Shown: positions 7,149 through 32,115 of the stretch, in pieces
How positions within the stretch are numbered: the stretch's first letter is position 1
How the letters are laid out: every line of letters starts with the position of its first letter
Sequence record: PZ787336.1
DNA from: a phage
Length of the DNA: 47,147 nt
Strand: one strand, 5' to 3'
The notes under the pieces: model-generated
The model's database searches: none
Told to the model about the DNA's origin: nothing
The model's input: the letters and a program-made list of their open reading frames with translations, nothing else
Position numbers and translations under genes: made by a program

Positions 7149-7567
7149 TTACTCCCACGCACAACCGCAAACCACGGCTTGCCGCCGCCGTCCGGGTCTT
7201 CCACTAAATCGCCAGTGCATCCTGCTGTATCCAGTAGTTTCATCTGATTGTATAGCGCCACCCACGGCTTGCTGCCATAAGCGAATGATTGCGATGCGCC
7301 AGATGGTGCGCTCTGACTGGTGACGTAGCGCCCTGCGGTATTTGCGCTAATCAGGATGGAAGCCCACAGCATGATCGCATTTTGCCGGCATTCATCATTG
7401 GGGTAGTTCAGCTCAAGGCATTCACTGATTGATGCCACAAGACACAGAATACCAGACGCATCCGTTGTGGTGATAGTCATTCCACGTGATGCCATCTGGC
7501 TTACTAATTCTTCAGGTGTTGGTGCTGCCATTTTTTTTTGACTCCCGTACCTTCCACCACATTTCAA
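7139..7567 (-). CDS. putative head-tail connector protein
   Basis: 142 aa; likely true start at internal Met (about 7531); position-based. Confidence 0.5.
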   Translation of the reverse strand: MKCGGRYGSQKKMAAPTPEELVSQMASRGMTITTTDASGILCLVASISECLELNYPNDECRQNAIMLWASILISANTAGRYVTSQSAPSGASQSFAYGSKPWVALYNQMKLLDTAGCTGDLVEDPDGGGKPWFAVVRGSKCK

Positions 7568-7796
7568 AGAGGTTCTTTATTACCAGAGACAGGGCGCCGA
7601 GGATTGACGCTACTGCCGCCCACTCTGTCAGACTGTGTGGAATCATAGCCTCAAAATAAGACTGCGTGACAGGCGTTTGCTCTGCAACTTTCAGTCCAAT
7701 ACCAGTACCAATGGAGGCATATCCAGCCTTGTCAATCACCTGCCCCGTCGTCCCGCTTATAACTTGCTCTGCGGCCTGTCTTAGTGTTTCGTTCAT
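7512..7796 (-). CDS. hypothetical protein with C-terminal transmembrane segment
   Basis: 94 aa ORF; hydrophobic stretch AAVASILGALSLVI. Confidence 0.35.
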   Translation of the reverse strand: MNETLRQAAEQVISGTTGQVIDKAGYASIGTGIGLKVAEQTPVTQSYFEAMIPHSLTEWAAVASILGALSLVIKNLFEMWWKVRESKKNGSTNT

Positions 7797-7828
7797 TGCG
7801 AGTCTCGCTGATAATATGTTTCCAGCAC

Positions 7829-8269
7829 TTATAGATTTGAATCAGCGAAAAAACGATGGCAACCACGCCAAGAATAATGTCCAATTTCGCCGCCCCATTT
7901 AAAAGTGATGGAAAGGATGAACAGATGGATGCCGATAATAATAAATGCGTACTGCGCATGAAGCGGCGTTTCTACAGGCGTGATAAATTCCCATACGAAT
8001 GACTCTATCGCAACCAGCCATTCGTAAAGGCTCATCGTCAGCACGCAGAGCGCCATCTTTGTACTTTTACGCAGCGCAATAGCCGGAAACAACCAGACCA
8101 TACACTGCGCAAGGTAATACAGATATTCGGCGGGAAATGAATCAACAAGCACCCATCCAAGATACACAGACATCACCATTGCCGGAATGAACACCAGAAA
8201 CGCAACCATGCCCGTGCAGGCAAATCCAAGCACATACATGATCATGATGGCAACATCTGCGCCGAACAT
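7829..8269 (-). CDS. hypothetical polytopic membrane protein
   Basis: 146 aa, several hydrophobic helices; first larger gene of the minus operon starting near 8388. Confidence 0.5.
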   Translation of the reverse strand: MFGADVAIMIMYVLGFACTGMVAFLVFIPAMVMSVYLGWVLVDSFPAEYLYYLAQCMVWLFPAIALRKSTKMALCVLTMSLYEWLVAIESFVWEFITPVETPLHAQYAFIIIGIHLFILSITFKWGGEIGHYSWRGCHRFFADSNL

Positions 8270-8388
8270 TATTTTTTACCGCGCGATGGTGAACGGGTAG
8301 AGCCGTTTGGCTTCACCACGCCAGTTTTGCCGCCAGTTTTTGTGTTGCCAGTAGCGCGCGAACGAGATGGTGAGTTGGTTGAACCCAT
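8269..8388 (-). CDS. hypothetical small basic Ser/Thr/Lys-rich protein (39 aa)
   Basis: GGAG RBS 8 nt upstream of the ATG; stop overlaps the ATG of the membrane protein (TAATG). Confidence 0.35.
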   Translation of the reverse strand: MGSTNSPSRSRATGNTKTGGKTGVVKPNGSTRSPSRGKK

Positions 8389-8435
8389 GTTTAAATCTCC
8401 TGTTGTTTGATTAGCATGATTTTAGCATATTCCTG

Positions 8436-8464
8436 TTGACGTAGATTGATGTGGCGTTTATAGT
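8436..8464 (+). promoter_or_regulatory. sigma70-like promoter TTGACG-N17-TATAGT for the ParB/methyltransferase island
   Basis: TTGACG 8436-8441 followed directly by tagattga; TATAGT 8459-8464. Confidence 0.5.
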
Positions 8465-8505
8465 TAGTGACGTAGAAACAACAATAAATGTTAGAGGTGA
8501 TGAAG

Positions 8506-9129
8506 ATGAGTAGTAACGCAAAACATTATGATTATTACATGGTTGAAGGTGATGATGTTAAGAAACTAATCGACGCATACGATGACATCAAGAATCGCCG
8601 CAATGAAATTCTCGGTGACGCAATGAAAAAGGTTGGAGCTGTCGCATTTACCACAACGCGCAGTTGGGGCGCTGTTGGCGGTGGCCTGCTTGAGAGTTTT
8701 GCGTGGAGCAATAAATTTGAATTTCCATGCCCTGTAACAATAAAACGTGAAGATTTTTGGGAAGGTCAGCGCGTGGTTATTGTTCGTGGGAAAGGAAACA
8801 CAAAGGATGGTCGTGAATACAACAAAAAGCTGGACGCAGTGATGCGCGAGGCAAACGAGAAATTAAAGTTATTGCCAGAATGGAAGGACTACATTGTTAA
8901 CCATTATGGCATCGCACGTACCGGCATTGGTGAGCAATCTGGTCGCGGATTTGGTTTTGCAATGCTTTCTACTTATGGAGGCAAACACCCGAAAAAGGAT
9001 GATTGTTTGATTTTTGCTGTGCCAAATACAAAAGATGAAGGTCACGGACGGGTAACGATACCTGATAACTTTAAGCAGATAACCTACGGTCAGTTTTACG
9101 ATATTGCTAATTCTGGTGATGAGGATTAA
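8506..9129 (+). CDS. hypothetical protein (207 aa), first gene of an accessory island
   Basis: ATG at 8506 preceded by AGAGGTGA RBS; ORF track gives 8488; no recognised domain. Confidence 0.6.
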   Translation: MSSNAKHYDYYMVEGDDVKKLIDAYDDIKNRRNEILGDAMKKVGAVAFTTTRSWGAVGGGLLESFAWSNKFEFPCPVTIKREDFWEGQRVVIVRGKGNTKDGREYNKKLDAVMREANEKLKLLPEWKDYIVNHYGIARTGIGEQSGRGFGFAMLSTYGGKHPKKDDCLIFAVPNTKDEGHGRVTIPDNFKQITYGQFYDIANSGDED

Positions 9130-9131
9130 TC

Positions 9132-9323
9132 ATGGCAAACATGTCCTACTGTCGATTTCGTAATACAGAGCAAGACTTCAATGATTGTGTTGATGCAATT
9201 GGCAACATTGAGTCTATTGGTGACTTAAGTAATGCAGAACGCAAGTCTGCTGAGCGCCTGTACCATCTTGCTAATGAGTACGTCGCATATTACGAGCAAT
9301 TATTGGAAGAAAGTGGTGAATGA
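9132..9323 (+). CDS. hypothetical small acidic protein
   Basis: 63 aa ORF tightly packed between neighbours. Confidence 0.5.
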   Translation: MANMSYCRFRNTEQDFNDCVDAIGNIESIGDLSNAERKSAERLYHLANEYVAYYEQLLEESGE

Positions 9324-9324
9324 T

Positions 9325-10134
9325 ATGAAAACACTTAGCAAAATCTATTCAGACAAAGAAACGCGCAACGGAATCGCTGTTAACAAAACCTATCTCGTGC
9401 CAGTGGAGCAAATCTATCTGGAGCCGGGATACAACATCCGCGAAGCAGACGAGCAGCATGTGGAGTATTTCGCGCAGTGCTGGGAATCAGGTCAGCCATT
9501 ACCAGCATTAACAGTTATTCCTGATGAGAAGGGAATCCGCATTCTTGATGGTCAGCATCGCTATCTAGGCGCATTGCGTGCCATTGAGCGTGGCGCACCA
9601 ATTGTTCGTATTGAGTGCAAGGATTTCACAGGAGGCGAAGCAGATAAAATCGCCTTCATGGTGTCGTCCAGTCAGGGTAAGCAGCTTGACCCGTTTGAAC
9701 GCGCAAAGGCTTACACGCGACTGAAGGGTTTTGGCTGGACCAACGAGGAAATCGCCAAGAAGGTAGGGCGCTCAGTTTCTGACGTGCAGATGCACCTGTC
9801 ACTGGGTGATGTGCCAGCCGAAGTAAAAGCGCGAATCAGTGCAGGGCAAATCAGCTATGCAAATGCCGTAGCAGTAACTCGCGAACATGGCGATGATGCG
9901 GTTAAAGTTATCGACGAGGCAGTCGAAGAAGCGAAGGCGCAAGGCAAGGATAAGGTAACGGCGAAGGTGCTTAAGTCGAAAAAGATTAAGCCAGTAGACC
10001 GACTGATTGAGTTACTGAAGCCAGCTGACCACGTTATTCTTCCTGCTGGTCATGTAGTGGCAGAGAATGAGGAGTTTATCCAGATTCCTGTTGCTGATAT
10101 TCACGAGGTGATGGCAATTCTGGAGAAGATGTGA
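9325..10134 (+). CDS. ParB-like nuclease domain protein
   Basis: N-terminal ParB/Srx-like region with the GIRILDGQHRYLGA-type motif; start at ATG 9325 directly after the upstream stop. Confidence 0.7.
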   Translation: MKTLSKIYSDKETRNGIAVNKTYLVPVEQIYLEPGYNIREADEQHVEYFAQCWESGQPLPALTVIPDEKGIRILDGQHRYLGALRAIERGAPIVRIECKDFTGGEADKIAFMVSSSQGKQLDPFERAKAYTRLKGFGWTNEEIAKKVGRSVSDVQMHLSLGDVPAEVKARISAGQISYANAVAVTREHGDDAVKVIDEAVEEAKAQGKDKVTAKVLKSKKIKPVDRLIELLKPADHVILPAGHVVAENEEFIQIPVADIHEVMAILEKM

Positions 10135-10931
10135 TGATGGTCCACTATTACAATGAGTGGGACAAGGGCGCAGCGGCATGGCTGCGTGAATTAATTAACA
10201 ATAAACTAATTCCTTACGGATATGTCGATGAACGATCAATCACCGAAGTCACCCCTTCAGACCTGGAAGGATTTACACAGTGTCACTTCTTTGCCGGAAT
10301 CGGAGGGTGGCCCCTTGCACTCCAGCTGGCAGGAATACCAGAAAGCACTCGACTCTGGACAGGATCACCACCTTGCCAGCCGTTTAGCGTTGCCGGTAAG
10401 TCTCTCGGATTTGACGACGATCGACACCTTGCCCCAGCATTTCTCAGGCTCATCAGAGAGTGCAAGCCTGAATTGCTGTTTGGAGAGCAGGTTGCAGCAG
10501 CAATTGGGAAGCACTGGCTCGATTTTGTATTCCTTAACCTGGAAGACAAAGGCTACGCCTGCGGGGCGTCAGTATTGCCAGCTTGCAGCGTCGGCTCTCC
10601 ACAGGAAAGGAAAAGAATCATCTTTGGCGCGAGGATGGGCGACACCAACGGCGCGAGGATGGAAGGATTACGGGAATCTCAGCAAGTCATTTTACAGAAA
10701 GGACGGGAAATTCAGGAACGATACTCTTTATCGCCAGATGTGGCTTCATGTTTATGGGATTCATGGAAACCCAACCATGGAGCAGATAAGGAAACTAGAG
10801 TCATACCAGGCGGATTTTGCGAGGCAACTCATGGGGTATCCGCAAGAGTGGGACGATTGCGCGGTTATGGTAATGCCATAGTTCCACAAGTCGCAGCAGA
10901 ATTCATTAAAGCATTCATGAGGTCCGTTTAA
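10131..10931 (+). CDS. DNA cytosine-5 methyltransferase (orphan); reading frame in the middle part uncertain
   Basis: motifs FAGIGG (I), PPCQPFS (IV), SPQERKRIIF (VIII), GNAIVP (X) in this frame; RQLMGYPQEW (motif IX-like) lies in the overlapping frame 10222..10881. Confidence 0.75.
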   Translation: MMMVHYYNEWDKGAAAWLRELINNKLIPYGYVDERSITEVTPSDLEGFTQCHFFAGIGGWPLALQLAGIPESTRLWTGSPPCQPFSVAGKSLGFDDDRHLAPAFLRLIRECKPELLFGEQVAAAIGKHWLDFVFLNLEDKGYACGASVLPACSVGSPQERKRIIFGARMGDTNGARMEGLRESQQVILQKGREIQERYSLSPDVASCLWDSWKPNHGADKETRVIPGGFCEATHGVSARVGRLRGYGNAIVPQVAAEFIKAFMRSV

Positions 10932-11104
10932 TGACACCAGAACAATTCATTGAAAAACAACTTCGCACCAAGCTGCCTGACATTGACCAGATGGCAATTG
11001 ATGCGGCGATTCAGTATTACAAGCGCAATCAGAGCGCAAAGAAGGGTGGCATTTTTGAAGAATGCCTGAAGGTTGCAAAACAACACATGATTAAGGTGAA
11101 GTGA
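10931..11104 (+). CDS. hypothetical small protein (57 aa)
   Basis: ATG overlaps the methyltransferase stop (TAATGA); coupled to the next ORF. Confidence 0.3.
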   Translation: MTPEQFIEKQLRTKLPDIDQMAIDAAIQYYKRNQSAKKGGIFEECLKVAKQHMIKVK

Positions 11105-11244
11105 TGAAACTAAAAATTAGCAAATTATTACTTGAATCAGCATTAATATTTCAGGGTCGCAATGATGTGCGATATTACCTGAATGGAATCTGCTTCATGC
11201 CTGATGGTCGCATTGCATCAACTGACGGTCATCGCGCGTGGTGA
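11104..11244 (+). CDS. 46-aa ORF resembling a fragment of the DnaN beta sliding clamp
   Basis: NDVRYYLNGICFMPDGRIASTDGHR matches the conserved DnaN stretch QDVRYYLNGMLF...ATDGHRLA; stops after 46 codons, terminator follows. Confidence 0.4.
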   Translation: MKLKISKLLLESALIFQGRNDVRYYLNGICFMPDGRIASTDGHRAW

Positions 11245-11279
11245 ATATGTCGTATCTTACAGCCATAGAAACCCCCAAT

Positions 11280-11306
11280 AAAAAACCCGCATTATGCGGG
11301 TTCAGT
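11280..11306. terminator. rho-independent terminator (strong on minus strand)
   Basis: CCCGCATtATGCGGG hairpin flanked by A6 on plus, which is T6 on minus. Confidence 0.65.
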
Positions 11307-11504
11307 TTACTCTGCTTTCTTTTTCTTTGTCGTCTTTTCCTGCGGGGTTGCGACTTCGAAAGACTTTTCCAGTTCTGGCATGATGCGCAGCTTTGGTAGC
11401 AGATGCTCGGCTGGTTCGGTAATCACCTCGCCAAGCTGCAATTCACGAATCTTGCCTTTCTCTTTAACAAAGATTCCGCGTGCGATGACTTCGTATTTAG
11501 CCAT
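11307..11504 (-). CDS. hypothetical protein downstream of major capsid gene
   Basis: 65 aa ORF, Lys-rich C-terminus, followed by terminator. Confidence 0.4.
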   Translation of the reverse strand: MAKYEVIARGIFVKEKGKIRELQLGEVITEPAEHLLPKLRIMPELEKSFEVATPQEKTTKKKKAE

Positions 11505-11547
11505 TATTCACCTCAAATTCACAAAGGGGCTATTCGCCCCTTTTCGA

Positions 11548-12618
11548 TTACTTCGGAGTTTGCGTACCGTAGCCGTTGAACACTTTTGACTTGCCGGTGA
11601 AATCCTTACGAATTTGCAAACCGAAAGCTGACCACACCATAAAGTTAAAGTTATCGTGCGGATTGTCACGGGCTGCCGCATAGGTGGAAACAGGCTGAGC
11701 AACACGCGGACGGATGTACATGTCGTTGCGAACGTAGCCAACGAAGTGGTTGCCAGTCAGCAGGAAGTTGGTGCCAATCTTGCCGATGCGACCATTGCCG
11801 AACTGCGTGATGTACTGCTCAACTGTGCCGCCTTTGAAGCCAGCCGCATCAGAATACGGACGCATGAAGCTACGACGCACTGCCGGGGAAACCCACAGAG
11901 TCACCTGCTCAAATACGTTCTGCGCATCCAGAATAGCCTGAAAATTCTGATTGAAGAAGGTCACGATTTCGTCTGGCGTTGCGGTTTGCAGGTCGATATT
12001 CAGACCGCCGGAAGCATTCAGGTTAACCTGAACAGTGTTCGGGTGGTTGGTGATACCGTAGCCAGTGTAAACGCCGTTCACGTTCAGAGTCTGGTCGCCA
12101 GTCAGCAGGTATTGCGCCATATCTGAACGCAGGTTGAAGGTGACGTTAGCCTGATCATCCAGCAGCGGGTCGAAACCTTCAGACTGCATACCCAGAAGTT
12201 CTCGCCATTCGCGGCTGTAGCCAGTCTTGAAAATTGGAATTACATCGCCAGTGTAATCGTAGCGAGTTTTATCCAAATCTTCCGGCTCCTGACCAGACAG
12301 AGTGCGAACAACCTTACCAGCATCGGAAGCAATGCGGCTGATTGCCACAGTCTTACCGATATTGATGTTTGCCGCGATACCCATCAGGTCAGCCATCATA
12401 TCCTGACCAGCTTCGTTGCGGAAAACGCGGGTGGTGACGTTATCAACATCGCGCCAGTAATCCTTCGTTACCAGTGCGGTGGCGTTAACACCATAGGTTT
12501 TCGCCAGTTCAGCCTCTGCATTGCAGAATACCTTGCGGTCGATAGTGAGATGTTTCCACTGGTCAGCCACCACTGCGGAGTTGGCTACCAGGTCTTTGGT
12601 AAAAATAATCTTTTCCAT
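11548..12618 (-). CDS. major capsid protein
   Basis: 356 aa ORF following protease-scaffold and decoration-like genes; size and position typical. Confidence 0.7.
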   Translation of the reverse strand: MEKIIFTKDLVANSAVVADQWKHLTIDRKVFCNAEAELAKTYGVNATALVTKDYWRDVDNVTTRVFRNEAGQDMMADLMGIAANINIGKTVAISRIASDAGKVVRTLSGQEPEDLDKTRYDYTGDVIPIFKTGYSREWRELLGMQSEGFDPLLDDQANVTFNLRSDMAQYLLTGDQTLNVNGVYTGYGITNHPNTVQVNLNASGGLNIDLQTATPDEIVTFFNQNFQAILDAQNVFEQVTLWVSPAVRRSFMRPYSDAAGFKGGTVEQYITQFGNGRIGKIGTNFLLTGNHFVGYVRNDMYIRPRVAQPVSTYAAARDNPHDNFNFMVWSAFGLQIRKDFTGKSKVFNGYGTQTPK

Positions 12619-13097: not shown

Positions 13098-14509
13098 TAT
13101 TCCGGTGCCTCCATATCAAAATCGTCATCAGCGTGGTTCGGCTGGAAGCCACCCTTCAGCGCGGCAGGCTTGCTGGTCAGCGCATAGGTTTCACGCAGTG
13201 CTTCGCCTTTCAGCGCATTCACGGCGGATTCCGGCAGTTTCAGTTCAGCGATGATAGCAGCACGCATCGCAGTTTCTTCCTGCTCGGTATTCGCCTGCAA
13301 TTGCTCTTTCAGCTTAACATTTTCAGCTTCGATGTCGGTCAGCTTCTGGTTGACAGCTGTCAACGATTCCTGAACCGGCTTGAGGGCATCAGCGAGTGCC
13401 GCCTGTAATTCCTCGTTCGTCATTGAGATTTCCCCTTCAGTTGATTTTACCGGCTCAAGTTCAGTCTTATAAACAGCCTTGACCCGCTCACCGACCAATT
13501 TTACCACATCATCTTCAACGATGTAGAACTGCTGAAAAATCTGGCCTTTGATTTCAAACCCGACACGGTCGTCGTAAACAGCCACAATGTAAGGCCATAC
13601 ATCTTCACCGACTTCAGCTTTCAGAATCTGGCGAATCTGCTCACTGATGTTCTCAAACGACAGGTCTGATTTGTTGGTGATGTAGTTGATGGCTTTGTGT
13701 AGCCACGATTTATAATTAATTTTGTTGGCGCTTTCGTCTGGCACGGTTGAATCCTCAAGATTTACAGTGATGCGTTCGATTTGCTCGCCGTTGGTGGCGA
13801 AGATTCCCACGCCATCTTCTGGAGTTCCGGCCCCCGGCACTCCCGGTGGCAGGATGGCGAGATGATCCCACTCCATGTTGCGTGCAATCCATGTGTATTT
13901 CTTGCCTTTACTTGTGCCTTCCGCAGCTTCGCGGTTGAGCAGCAAGCCAGTGGATACGTGGATTGGCTCAGCGCCTTCTGCGGAGTTCATTAGCGCCTCA
14001 ATGCGACCGAGCAACTCCCGTCCTTTCTCTGAGCGTTCGGCAATGACCTTGTTAACCTTCAGGTCTACCAGCGCCTTGCTACCATCATGGGATGAGTTTT
14101 CAATCCATGCCCCAACACTGAATTGGTTAGCAGCGCGCGTCATGCTTGCGGAGACATATTTACCATCAATCATCGGGTGATTGTATGGCGCAGGCTTACC
14201 ATCAAGGCCGTGATAGCTCTTGCGAATTTCCTCGCCAGGATACAAGCCGTTATTCATCACAACATCGTCAACAACTGGCACGACGTTTTTAATCACGTAG
14301 TGCGGGTCGCCATCAATGATTTGCTCACTGATATTTCTGGCTGAATTGATGGTCGTCAGTACGTTAACCTGCAATTTATTATTCATGTGCTTGAACGCTT
14401 CCACTTCTGTGAGGCGTTTTTTGGCGGCTTCTTCTGTATCGTATTCGCCAAATTGCTGTGAGCCATCTGTCGACTTGACCACCCACTTATCGCCAATCTT
14501 GACAATCAT
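13097..14509 (-). CDS. putative prohead protease / scaffolding fusion protein
   Basis: about 470 aa; C-terminal third is a charged coiled-coil-like scaffold region; ATG at 14509 preceded by GGAGAG; the track ORF extends to 14587 from a TTG. Confidence 0.55.
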
Positions 14510-32085: not shown

Positions 32086-32115
32086 CTCTTCACTCTCGTT
32101 TGTTCCGATGAGTTC

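What the first reader, a model, noticed from the sequence alone, without database searches (positions are those of the whole stretch)
8436..11306. Self-contained plus-strand island inside the head-tail region: unknown 207-aa protein, ParB-like nuclease, C5-methyltransferase, small ORFs
The island has its own promoter (8436-8464) and terminator (11280-11306) and is transcribed against the surrounding structural genes. The ParB-like nuclease plus orphan methyltransferase pairing recurs in phages with unclear function, and the first gene (8506..9129) and the 63-aa ORF have no recognisable domain. This is a plausible anti-defence or host-modification module and a candidate for an undescribed system.
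Basis: inference. Interest (0 to 1): 0.6.

Follow-up and report, generated by a model that had tools for sequence, protein, structure and literature searches.

The report
Phage accessory operon with nested methyltransferase

Summary
The plus-strand block 8436-11306 exists as described. It has a promoter-like site that is invariant in relatives, six tightly packed ORFs, and a hairpin shared with the converging head operon. It is not one "system". In Skatevirus-like relatives the same slot carries swappable cassettes around a constant backbone of a ParB-like gene, a 57-aa ORF and a clamp-like gene.

- **First gene:** it belongs to the EaC/DUF5420 family. The model is confident, but no solved structure resembles it and the function is unknown.
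- **"ParB-like nuclease":** it is a ParB/Noc/KorB-type DNA-binding protein in which DGQHR replaces the GERR motif.
- **Methyltransferase:** the gene is dual-coding. Alpha (10134-10931) carries motifs I-VIII and X. Beta (10222-10881, +1 frame) is nested inside it and ends in a motif-IX-like LMGYPQEW. Both frames stay open and conserved in 84 viral and 79 of 80 bacterial homologous loci.
- **Selection:** substitutions fall on alpha wobble positions at the 5' and 3' ends. They fall on beta wobble positions in nt ~10626-10820.

The arrangement matches the two-subunit enzyme M.EcoHK31I, here as an orphan phage enzyme. Heterodimer formation, target site and protective role are inferred. This is a new member of a known kind and of moderate interest.

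The parts
8436..8464 (+). Sigma-70-type promoter-like site, TTGACG-17 nt-TATAGT
   Evidence: The consensus scan gives a 10/12 match. Both hexamers are invariant in 7 relatives.
8437..8476 (+). Two direct copies of TGACGTAGA (8437-8445 and 8468-8476) bracketing the -10 hexamer; a candidate operator or shared promoter element
   Evidence: The motif occurs 6 times in the window against 0.23 expected. The other copies lie in similar promoter-like intergenic contexts.
8506..9129 (+). EaC/DUF5420-family protein, 207 aa, function unknown
9132..9323 (+). 63-aa ORF, function unknown, optional among relatives
   Evidence: It matches phrog_8760 at E 3e-25. It is absent in Bas79 and KFSST1 and present in HC6, Bas77 and BS5.
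9325..10134 (+). ParB/Noc/KorB-like DNA-binding protein, 269 aa, with an N-terminal ParB-type domain (DGQHR in place of GERR) and a ParB helix-turn-helix
   Evidence: HTH_ParB E 2.5e-11 and KorB E 4.5e-6. It aligns to Spo0J 1vz0 over residues 40-202 at E 6e-13, with GQHRY opposite GERRY. It is constant across relatives.
10134..10931 (+). C5-cytosine DNA methyltransferase large subunit (alpha), 265 aa, with motifs I, IV, VI, VIII and X. Its start overlaps the ParB stop codon (TGATG).
   Evidence: PF00145 E 1e-21, covering motifs IV-VIII only. phrog_363 E 3e-75. hhalign against M.HhaI covers motifs I-VIII at E 3.6e-15. GNAIVPQ is seen by inspection.
10222..10881 (+). Nested +1-frame ORF (beta), 219 aa (217 if it starts at ATG 10228), the putative small subunit of the methyltransferase. 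It has a conserved LTWK..TPxGR..AS hairpin region, WxTPTA(R/x)D, and a C-terminal motif-IX-like LMGYPQEWDDC.
   Evidence: phrog_1008 E 8e-20. tblastn finds it in 223 phage records. The +1 frame is open and homologous in 84 viral and 79 of 80 bacterial loci. The codon-position switch is 23/3/2 in a166-230. HMMER finds 16,759 cluster representatives at E<=1e-10.
10931..11104 (+). 57-aa ORF, function unknown, constant among relatives
   Evidence: phrog_4439 E 4e-23. It is present in all relatives examined.
11104..11244 (+). Truncated 5' part (46-47 codons) of a 179-aa clamp-like gene (phrog_3007; weak similarity to the central domain of DnaN)
   Evidence: phrog_3007 E 2e-18 over profile positions 1-45 of 190. 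The window lacks 403 bp that relatives have, with a junction at 11237/11276. The full-length homolog hits TIGR00663 dnaN at E 1e-7.
11283..11303 (.). GC-rich hairpin shared by the converging island and head transcription units
   Evidence: The terminator scan flags it on the minus strand. Folding gives z -3.7 and -3.1. It is conserved in 6 relatives.

Best explanation
The region is a conserved, divergently oriented accessory operon of Skatevirus-like siphophages, assembled from independent cassettes rather than forming one system.

It is read from a promoter that belongs to a family of similar promoter/operator sites in this genome. It encodes, in order:
1. An EaC/DUF5420 protein of unknown function, in a slot that relatives fill with an acidic protein labelled 'anti-restriction'.
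2. A 63-aa protein.
3. A ParB/KorB-like DNA-binding protein.
4. A C5-cytosine methyltransferase.
5. A 57-aa protein.
6. The remnant of a clamp-like gene.

The methyltransferase is made as two polypeptides from the same DNA. [quoted passage not shown] Beta is started internally at ATG 10222 or 10228 in the +1 frame. Beta contains the variable, probably DNA-recognition, segment and a motif-IX-like C-terminus.

By analogy with M.EcoHK31I, the two chains associate to form the active enzyme. That enzyme would methylate replicating phage DNA at a still unknown site and so blunt the subset of host restriction enzymes that C5-methylation at that site blocks.

Shown: the ORFs, their homologies, conservation of both frames, and the switch of purifying selection between frames. 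Inferred: translation of beta, heterodimer formation, enzymatic activity, target site and protective role.
For: Island anatomy and conservation.

Dual coding:
- In six distant phages both frames give significant tblastn hits. Alpha is 41-58% identical and beta 30-40%, with beta always in the +1 frame.
- In the 80 IMG/VR loci kept from 580 relatives, the +1 frame is open for at least 207 codons in all of them, and 78 give a beta hit.
- In 79 of 80 bacterial species genomes alpha and beta overlap by a median of 626 nt, with beta at +1.
- Synonymous-codon shuffles of alpha give far lower beta similarity (median z 4.8) and much shorter +1 ORFs.
- Between motifs I and VI the +1 frame has no stop codon in 68 of 73 homologs, although shuffles rarely achieve this.
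- The alpha frame stays open through the beta-constrained linker in 78 of 78, where beta-synonymous shuffles give 3.4 stops on average.

Selection switch: against an 80%-identical relative, differences at alpha codon positions 1/2/3 are 11/6/29 in the alpha-type regions but 23/3/2 in a166-230 (b136-200), which is the wobble position of beta (p 2e-6). Four further relatives show the same switch.

Motif content: alpha aligns to M.HhaI motifs I-VIII. The only hhalign match of the beta profile to M.HhaI is beta 190-211 against HhaI 269-290, which is motif IX.

Precedent: in M.EcoHK31I the beta chain lies entirely within alpha in another frame, alpha has motifs I-VIII and X, beta has motif IX, and both are needed for activity (PMC2836561; PMC3404938).

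Orphan status: no restriction endonuclease gene was annotated or matched in the contexts read. The gene sits among replication or early genes in unrelated phages and prophages.
Against: - No expression or activity data exist for this gene.
- Beta has only a weak Shine-Dalgarno-like sequence (ACGGAT).
- The beta profile's match to motif IX is short and not significant on its own (E 0.074). A second comparison, with M.HaeIII, did not reproduce it (E 0.77).
- The AlphaFold2 model of beta alone is poor (pLDDT 55), and Foldseek finds nothing.
- The secondary literature places the predicted target-recognition domain of M.EcoHK31I in alpha, whereas the selection pattern here points to beta.
- Sequence homology to M.EcoHK31I itself could not be tested.
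- Relatives carrying the island are reported as markedly sensitive to the restriction systems tested in the BASEL study, so any protection is narrow.
- The homologous sequences used in the shuffle tests share ancestry, so the combined probabilities are not independent.
Confidence: 0.75

Rival explanations
1. One reading: the whole island is one integrated, undescribed anti-defence or host-modification system in which the ParB-like protein, the methyltransferase and the unknown proteins work together.
For: The genes share one promoter, are tightly packed and translationally coupled. The first slot holds a protein labelled 'anti-restriction' in relatives. EaC and the small ORFs have no known function.
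Against: Gene content is mosaic. The methyltransferase is replaced by an HNH endonuclease or a 120-aa ORF, EaC is replaced by or joined with the acidic protein, and the 63-aa ORF is optional. The methyltransferase is next to this ParB in only 2 of 86 other loci. The clamp-like backbone gene is deleted in this window without loss of the rest. No PADLOC match appears apart from generic methyltransferase models.
Confidence: 0.08
2. The nested ORF is not a gene. Its openness and similarity across phages would be a by-product of constraint on the alpha protein and of codon usage.
For: The first ~80 beta codons are poorly conserved and predicted to be disordered. The +1 frame of this gene has a low intrinsic stop density, 6.7 stops in shuffles against about 14 in the +2 frame. 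Beta has no Pfam, NCBIfam or PDB match.
Against: In nt ~10626-10820 substitutions concentrate on beta's third codon positions while alpha changes freely. Beta motifs are better conserved than alpha in the same DNA. The ORF is kept open in about 160 diverged loci across many phyla. The experimentally proven precedent M.EcoHK31I has the same layout.
Confidence: 0.03
3. A single canonical methyltransferase chain is produced by ribosomal frameshifting, from alpha to beta after motif VIII and back to alpha before motif X, rather than two subunits.
For: The order motif VIII (alpha), WPTPTA and motif IX (beta), motif X (alpha) would recreate a standard single-chain layout.
Against: This needs two efficient shifts. 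The beta frame is kept open about 90 codons upstream of where a shift would be needed, back to alpha codon ~26. The alpha frame is kept open through the whole linker. In M.EcoHK31I the two chains are separately translated and work when expressed from separate plasmids. None of the eight longest of the 150 listed beta-family proteins is a fusion with alpha; the two that have a Pfam domain are fused to downstream Dam or DUF2800 genes.
Confidence: 0.03
4. The alpha/beta methyltransferase is active, but its role is not protection from restriction. It could, for example, mark phage DNA for replication, packaging or gene regulation, counter a methylation-reading or other defence, or simply be a mobile selfish cassette.
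For: It sits among replication genes in several phages. It is a swappable cassette exchanged with a homing-type HNH gene. Carriers remain sensitive to the tested restriction systems.
Against: Protection from restriction is the established role of phage orphan methyltransferases in general (background knowledge). The restriction systems tested in BASEL need not overlap its specificity.
Confidence: 0.2

Closest known systems
M.EcoHK31I (and, from memory, its isoschizomer M.EaeI), a two-polypeptide C5-cytosine methyltransferase recognising YGGCCR
   Same: The small subunit is encoded inside the large-subunit gene in another reading frame. [quoted passage not shown] Internal ATGs start the small subunit (PMC2836561; PMC3404938).
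   Different: Here the enzyme is an orphan in phages and prophages, with no restriction endonuclease gene annotated or matched nearby. Beta is longer (about 210-350 aa against 176). Selection analysis places the variable, probably target-recognising, segment in beta, whereas the literature predicts it in alpha for M.EcoHK31I. Alpha has a motif-II-like YNEWD before motif I. Sequence relatedness to M.EcoHK31I could not be tested.
M.AquI, a C5 methyltransferase with alpha/beta subunits
   Same: It is a naturally split C5 methyltransferase whose two chains are both required.
   Different: M.AquI is split within the variable region into consecutive genes, with motifs I-VIII in one and IX-X in the other. 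It is not a long nested overlap, and motif X lies in the small subunit.
Lambda Rz/Rz1 spanin genes (background knowledge)
   Same: This is a phage gene fully embedded in the +1 frame of another, and both products are subunits of one complex.
   Different: The function is unrelated (lysis). Rz1 is much shorter (about 60 codons), whereas the overlap here is 219 codons and spans conserved catalytic motifs.
Monomeric orphan phage C5 methyltransferases of the Dcm, M.HhaI or M.HaeIII type
   Same: They share the catalytic motifs I, IV, VI and VIII and the presumed role of self-protection against restriction.
   Different: The single-chain enzymes carry the target-recognition domain and motif IX in the same frame between motifs VIII and X. 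Here alpha has only a weakly constrained linker there.
Chromosomal and plasmid ParB, Noc and KorB proteins
   Same: The ParB-like protein has the same N-terminal domain plus ParB-type helix-turn-helix architecture and aligns to Spo0J, ParB, Noc and KorB structures.
   Different: The CTP-binding GERR box reads DGQHR. No ParA partner and no parS-like site were identified. The gene sits in a lytic-type siphophage accessory operon.
P22 EaC / DUF5420
   Same: The 207-aa protein is 52-90% identical to proteins named Eac or DUF5420 in enterobacterial prophages.
   Different: It is placed here at the head of a Skatevirus accessory operon instead of the P22 ea region. The function is unknown in both settings.

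Membership tests
C5-cytosine DNA methyltransferase (PF00145 / Dcm superfamily) | Motif I (FxGxG, AdoMet binding) | tested here: met
   FFAGIGG at alpha residues 52-58 aligns to the FAGLGG of M.HhaI.
C5-cytosine DNA methyltransferase (PF00145 / Dcm superfamily) | Motif IV (PCQ, catalytic cysteine), motif VI (ENV) and motif VIII (QxRxR) | tested here: met
   PPCQPFS, FGEQV and PQERKR align to GFPCQAFS, FMENV and PQKRER of M.HhaI (E 3.6e-15). PF00145 scores E 1e-21.
C5-cytosine DNA methyltransferase (PF00145 / Dcm superfamily) | Motifs IX and X in the same chain, downstream of a target-recognition domain | tested here: not met
   Alpha has GNAIVPQ (motif X, by inspection) but no motif IX, and the Pfam and hhalign matches stop at motif VIII. 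A motif-IX-like LMGYPQEW lies in the +1 frame.
C5-cytosine DNA methyltransferase (PF00145 / Dcm superfamily) | Transfers a methyl group to cytosine C5 in DNA | not testable with these tools
   This needs bisulfite, EM-seq or nanopore analysis of phage DNA or of a clone.
M.EcoHK31I-type nested alpha/beta methyltransferase | The small-subunit ORF lies within the large-subunit gene in another frame | tested here: met
   Beta (10222-10881) lies inside alpha (10134-10931) in the +1 frame. The same holds in 84 viral and 79 of 80 bacterial loci.
M.EcoHK31I-type nested alpha/beta methyltransferase | The large subunit has motifs I-VIII and X; the small subunit has motif IX | tested here: inconclusive
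   The alpha part is met (plus inspection). For beta, the only hhalign match to M.HhaI falls exactly on motif IX, but with E 0.074, and M.HaeIII did not reproduce it.
M.EcoHK31I-type nested alpha/beta methyltransferase | The small subunit is a real, selected protein | tested here: met
   The codon-position switch is 23/3/2 (p 2e-6), repeated in 4 more relatives. ORF maintenance tests agree.
M.EcoHK31I-type nested alpha/beta methyltransferase | Both polypeptides are required for activity, as a heterodimer | not testable with these tools
   No multimer prediction or assay was available. Beta alone folds poorly.
M.EcoHK31I-type nested alpha/beta methyltransferase | Sequence homology to M.EcoHK31I alpha and beta | not testable with these tools
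M.EcoHK31I-type nested alpha/beta methyltransferase | Part of a restriction-modification pair with a cognate endonuclease | tested here: not met
   No endonuclease gene is annotated or matched in the island or in the phage and prophage contexts read. The neighbours of the 80 bacterial loci were not screened.
ParB/Spo0J/Noc/KorB family | ParB-type helix-turn-helix DNA-binding domain | tested here: met
   PF17762 scores E 2.5e-11, above its cut-off. The protein aligns to Spo0J, ParB, Noc and KorB structures.
ParB/Spo0J/Noc/KorB family | N-terminal domain with the GERRxR CTP-binding box | tested here: not met
   The N-terminal domain aligns, but the box reads DGQHRY where Spo0J has GERRY. Pfam ParBc was not matched at E<0.1. 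TIGR00180 scores below its cut-off.
ParB/Spo0J/Noc/KorB family | Cognate parS-type palindromic sites | tested here: inconclusive
   Two 16-bp perfect palindromes lie at 12017 and 13349, but 0.7 are expected by chance and they are absent from other relatives that carry this ParB.
ParB/Spo0J/Noc/KorB family | Nuclease activity (implied by the label 'ParB-like nuclease') | not testable with these tools
   The label is only the Pfam domain name. Nothing in the sequence tests it.
EaC / DUF5420 | Sequence membership | tested here: met
   120 listed homologs, 51-91% identical to the query, include many that NCBI or UniRef name Eac protein or DUF5420 family. The Pfam model itself gives only E 0.02, below its cut-off. 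phrog_2260 scores E 1e-58.
Single multi-gene anti-defence system | The components co-occur as a unit across genomes | tested here: not met
   The cassettes vary independently among relatives, and the methyltransferase, EaC and ParB are unlinked elsewhere.

The most novel reading that the evidence does not exclude
The nested beta ORF may define a very large protein family that neither Pfam nor NCBIfam recognises: 16,759 cluster representatives at E<=1e-10, spread across many bacterial phyla and phage groups. On this reading beta is the obligatory second subunit of one of the commonest phage-borne C5-methyltransferase types and carries the target-recognition determinants. One piece of DNA would then be read in two frames, with purifying selection handing over from alpha to beta and back. 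Specificity could be changed by exchanging a segment that is meaningful only in the beta frame. Most public annotations record only one of the two genes, and sometimes the 'wrong' one.
Probability: 0.55. Interest if true: 0.6.

Novelty: new member of a known kind. Interest (0 to 1): 0.45.

Why it matters
- **Annotation.** The island itself is ordinary phage mosaicism. The methyltransferase, however, is one of the longest and best-supported same-strand nested gene pairs seen in phages: 219 codons, conserved from enterobacterial siphophages to Rhodobacter, Burkholderia, Xanthomonas and Vibrio phages and prophages of many phyla. In the records examined, annotation usually shows only one of the two genes, so methyltransferase inventories and 'hypothetical protein' counts are both affected.
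- **Benchmarking.** It gives a clean natural test case for methods that detect overlapping genes, because selection visibly switches frame within one gene.
- **Enzymology.** It suggests that the M.EcoHK31I curiosity is a widespread design. It also gives a testable idea that target recognition resides in the small subunit.
- **Phage biology.** Knowing that two proteins are needed matters for anyone cloning these enzymes or predicting which restriction systems a phage can evade.

Tried and rejected
- **Beta structure.** AlphaFold2 with 73 sequences gave pLDDT 55, with residues 1-79 disordered. Foldseek against the PDB gave nothing below E 0.07. A sequence-profile search of the PDB gave no hit at E<=10. 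Beta's fold is therefore unresolved.
- **Motif IX in beta.** hhalign to M.HhaI lands on motif IX at E 0.074. hhalign to M.HaeIII does not (E 0.77, landing on ASGRQCQL at HaeIII residues 240-252). This is treated as inconclusive.
- **Single-chain relatives carrying a beta-like domain in frame.** Of the eight longest listed beta-family proteins, two are read-through fusions to downstream Dam or DUF2800 genes and six have no Pfam domain; none contains an alpha-type domain. P0042 is an alpha-to-beta frameshift chimera seen in a single contig. Erwinia tracheiphila L156 has the two frames joined, possibly as a pseudogene.
- **parS sites for the ParB-like protein.** The palindromes are not conserved with the gene.
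- **Other screens.** PADLOC found only generic methyltransferase models for alpha. Rfam found nothing. Repeats within the island were nothing beyond a 13-nt duplicate inside the methyltransferase.
- **M.EcoHK31I sources.** The original paper and the sequences were not held.
- **Target site.** No attempt was made to guess it from site frequencies, because that would not be informative for a self-methylating phage.

Full report
**What the window is.** The island region (8200-11600) is 97.8-98.9% identical to Escherichia phages HC6, 6947, HC8A and ZCEC08. It is 90-96% identical to BASEL phages Bas77-80 and to Salmonella and Klebsiella relatives. The BASEL authors place Bas77-81 in a Skatevirus cluster of 46-48-kb siphophages (PMC11990801). 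The gene order of HC6 shows the island between the head genes and the neck, tail-completion and membrane genes, on the opposite strand.

**Check of the observation.**
- The six plus-strand ORFs lie at the stated coordinates and are tightly packed.
- The promoter-like site TTGACG-17-TATAGT at 8436-8464 is the best hit in the scan. The scan shows no overall excess of such sites. This one, however, is invariant in seven relatives, down to an 82%-identical Klebsiella phage.
- The hairpin at 11283-11303 is stable on both strands and conserved.
- The T-run of that hairpin is on the minus strand, so it mainly ends the converging head operon and is at best bidirectional.
- The last ORF (47 codons) is the 5' stump of a 179-aa clamp-like gene. 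The window lacks 403 bp that Bas79, Bas77 and BS5 have.

**The island is a mosaic, not a system.** Across relatives the backbone is ParB-like gene, 57-aa ORF and clamp-like gene. Everything else varies:
- *Slot 1*, directly after the promoter, holds EaC (window, HC6, Bas79). In Bas77 and BS5 it holds an 86-aa very acidic protein that PHROGs labels 'anti-restriction'. KFSST1 has both.
- The 63-aa ORF comes and goes.
- *Slot 2*, after ParB, holds the methyltransferase (window, HC6, Bas77-80, ZX4), an HNH endonuclease (BS5) or a 120-aa unknown (KFSST1).
- Cassettes are exchanged exactly at gene borders. The alpha start overlaps the ParB stop codon as TGATG.
- Outside this phage group, only 2 of 86 loci with this methyltransferase also have this ParB.
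- Elsewhere the methyltransferase sits between DNA polymerase and helicase (K1ind1 type), between nrd genes (a Krischvirus), or before gene A in P2/186-like prophages.

**The individual proteins.**
- *The 269-aa protein* has a ParB-type helix-turn-helix (E 2.5e-11). It aligns to Spo0J, ParB, Noc and KorB structures over the N-terminal domain and the helix-turn-helix, but DGQHRY stands where Spo0J has GERRY. It is best described as a ParB/KorB-like DNA-binding protein. Nothing supports a nuclease function.
- *The 63- and 57-aa ORFs* match only PHROG families of unknown function.

**The overlooked feature: a second gene inside the methyltransferase.** The ORF list shows a 219-codon ORF (10222-10881) in the +1 frame of the 265-codon methyltransferase ORF.
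- Its translation matches phrog_1008, labelled 'DNA methyltransferase', at E 8e-20.
- By tblastn it matches 223 phage records, 203 of them below 60% identity (30-58% in the diverged hits listed), from Klebsiella, Rhodobacter, Xanthomonas, Burkholderia, Vibrio and other phages.
- In six such phages both frames give significant matches, with the second always +1 to the first, and both are long open frames.
- Public records are inconsistent. Xanthomonas phage FoX4 annotates the +1 frame as the methyltransferase, K1ind1 annotates both (the second as 'Mte8-like'), and PGAP annotates only the first.

**Motif content of the two frames.**
- *Alpha* contains FFAGIGG (motif I), PPCQPFS (IV), FGEQV (VI), PQERKR (VIII) and GNAIVPQ (X). 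It aligns to M.HhaI motifs I-VIII at E 3.6e-15.
- Between motifs VIII and X, alpha has a segment that is variable in length and sequence.
- *Beta* has a poorly conserved first ~80 residues. After that come conserved L..RL...GS.LY.LTWK...TP.GR....AS..R, one or more WPTPTA.D units, a variable stretch, and a C-terminal LNP..SRWLMGYP.EWDDCA.
- The only hhalign match of the beta profile to M.HhaI is beta 190-211 against HhaI 269-290, the motif IX segment RKLHPRECARVMGYPDSY. It is short and only E 0.074, and M.HaeIII did not reproduce it.

**Is the second frame really under selection?**
1. In the 80 IMG/VR loci kept from 580 relatives (alpha 41-67% identical), the +1 frame is open for at least 207 codons in all. 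Seventy-eight give a beta hit, always in the +1 frame.
2. In 79 of 80 bacterial species genomes from many phyla, alpha and beta overlap by a median of 626 nt in the same relative frame.
3. Shuffling synonymous codons of alpha leaves much lower beta similarity (median z 4.8) and much shorter +1 ORFs (about 130 codons against about 270).
4. In the alpha-dominated stretch between motifs I and VI, 68 of 73 homologs have no +1 stop. This is rare in shuffles, and the beta frame typically opens at alpha codon ~26.
5. Conversely, the alpha frame is open through the linker in 78 of 78, although beta-synonymous shuffles give 3.4 stops on average.
6. The strongest evidence is the position of substitutions. 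Against an 80%-identical contig, differences at alpha codon positions 1/2/3 are 3/2/9 and 4/1/9 in the alpha-only ends and 4/3/11 in a31-110. In a166-230 (b136-200) they are 23/3/2, concentrated on beta's wobble position (p 2e-6). Four more relatives give 30/14/16, 34/17/17, 31/18/15 and 36/15/12.

Purifying selection therefore acts on alpha at the two ends, on both frames in a111-165 and a231-250, and mainly on beta in nt ~10626-10820. The homologous sequences share ancestry, so combined probabilities are overstated. The pattern itself is consistent throughout.

**Comparison with what is known.** M.EcoHK31I (YGGCCR) needs two polypeptides. [quoted passage not shown] Internal methionines start beta, and the two work when expressed from separate plasmids (PMC2836561; PMC3404938). 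The phage gene has the same layout and most likely works the same way.

Differences from M.EcoHK31I:
- It is an orphan, with no restriction endonuclease gene annotated or matched in the contexts read.
- Beta is longer.
- Selection analysis points to beta, not alpha, for the variable and probably specificity-determining segment. The window's beta subtype is shared with P2-like prophage versions.
- Alpha carries a motif-II-like YNEWD ahead of motif I.

Direct sequence comparison with M.EcoHK31I was not possible. Only 7 papers in the searchable library mention EcoHK31I, and none is about phages.

**Size of the beta family.** A full HMMER search found 30,650 cluster representatives at E<=0.001 and 16,759 at E<=1e-10. 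The protein has no Pfam, NCBIfam, PADLOC or PDB match. None of the eight longest listed members contains an alpha-type domain, and the two with a Pfam domain are fusions with downstream genes.

**Function.** The best-supported reading is an alpha/beta C5-methyltransferase that modifies phage DNA and protects it from a narrow set of host restriction enzymes. This is inferred, not shown. Relatives with the island remain markedly sensitive to the restriction systems tested in BASEL. Beta has only a weak ribosome-binding site. Beta alone does not fold confidently.

**Verdict.** The 'single novel system' interpretation is not supported. The island is an ordinary mosaic accessory operon whose methyltransferase is a new, orphan, phage-borne member of the rare nested alpha/beta type, belonging to a large family that public databases leave unannotated.

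Noticed in passing
window 8437, 8468, 17404(-), 20625, 32135(-), 36100; GTAGATTGA also at 32114(-), 36079, 38721: TGACGTAGA occurs 6 times (0.23 expected) and GTAGATTGA 5 times (0.35 expected). Most copies lie in intergenic TTGACGTAGATTGA...(T/C)ATAGT promoter-like contexts, sometimes with an inverted copy (TCTACATCA). Sites 8468 and 36100 share TGACGTAGAAACAnCAATAAA. This looks like a phage-specific promoter/operator family that would co-regulate the island with other early-looking units.
   Followed up: partly
window 11237-11276 (compare L002 5347-5749): A 403-bp deletion relative to Bas79, Bas77 and BS5 truncates the otherwise constant 179-aa clamp-like gene (phrog_3007, DnaN-central-domain-like) to 47 codons. 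The plus-strand terminator that KFSST1 and ZX4 carry here is also absent. HC6 instead carries extra genes at this spot, a 58-aa ORF and a 281-aa minus-strand ORF.
   Followed up: partly
window 10134-10300 (alpha residues 1-60): Alpha has a motif-II-like YYNEWDK and a motif-III-like VDERSI..V.P.DL ahead of motif I (FFAGIGG). This order differs from M.HhaI and suggests a permuted N-terminal arrangement in this whole family.
   Followed up: partly
window 10626-10638 and 10650-10662: The exact 13-nt direct repeat GGCGCGAGGATGG, spaced 24 nt apart, duplicates ARGW in beta and GARM in alpha. It sits at the start of the beta-constrained segment, where other family members carry repeated WPTPTA.D units.
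   Followed up: no
L006 (Xanthomonas phage FoX4 gp11), L003 (K1ind1 ORF28/29), L181 (E. coli EC6868 prophage), L094: Public annotation of this gene is inconsistent. FoX4 and several metagenome gene calls pick the beta frame. K1ind1 lists both, with beta as 'Mte8-like'. PGAP lists only alpha. Tatumella ptyseos names a beta homolog 'restriction enzyme'.
   Followed up: yes
L156 (Erwinia tracheiphila) and protein P0042: Two cases have the alpha N-terminus and beta in one frame. One is a single-contig chimera. The other is in a genome that, from memory, is rich in pseudogenes. These are probably frameshift mutants or assembly errors, not natural fusions.
   Followed up: partly
window 12017-12032 and 13349-13364: Two perfect 16-bp palindromes (TTCAGGTTAACCTGAA and GTTGACAGCTGTCAAC) lie inside the head genes. 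They are conserved only in the closest relatives, and about 0.7 are expected by chance, so they give no support as ParB binding sites.
   Followed up: yes
L090 1806-2066 (Bas77), same position as window 8506: Relatives place an 86-aa, strongly acidic protein (phrog_14587, labelled 'anti-restriction protein', no Pfam match) as the first gene after the island promoter, where the window has EaC. This makes slot 1 a likely place for counter-defence genes and gives EaC a weak guilt-by-position lead.
   Followed up: partly
window 7512-8269 (-): Two small membrane or lipoprotein genes (phrog_13738 'membrane protein, moron' and phrog_14688 'lipoprotein') lie between the neck genes and the island on the minus strand. 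They are transcribed away from the island promoter region, so the accessory zone extends beyond the reported coordinates.
   Followed up: no
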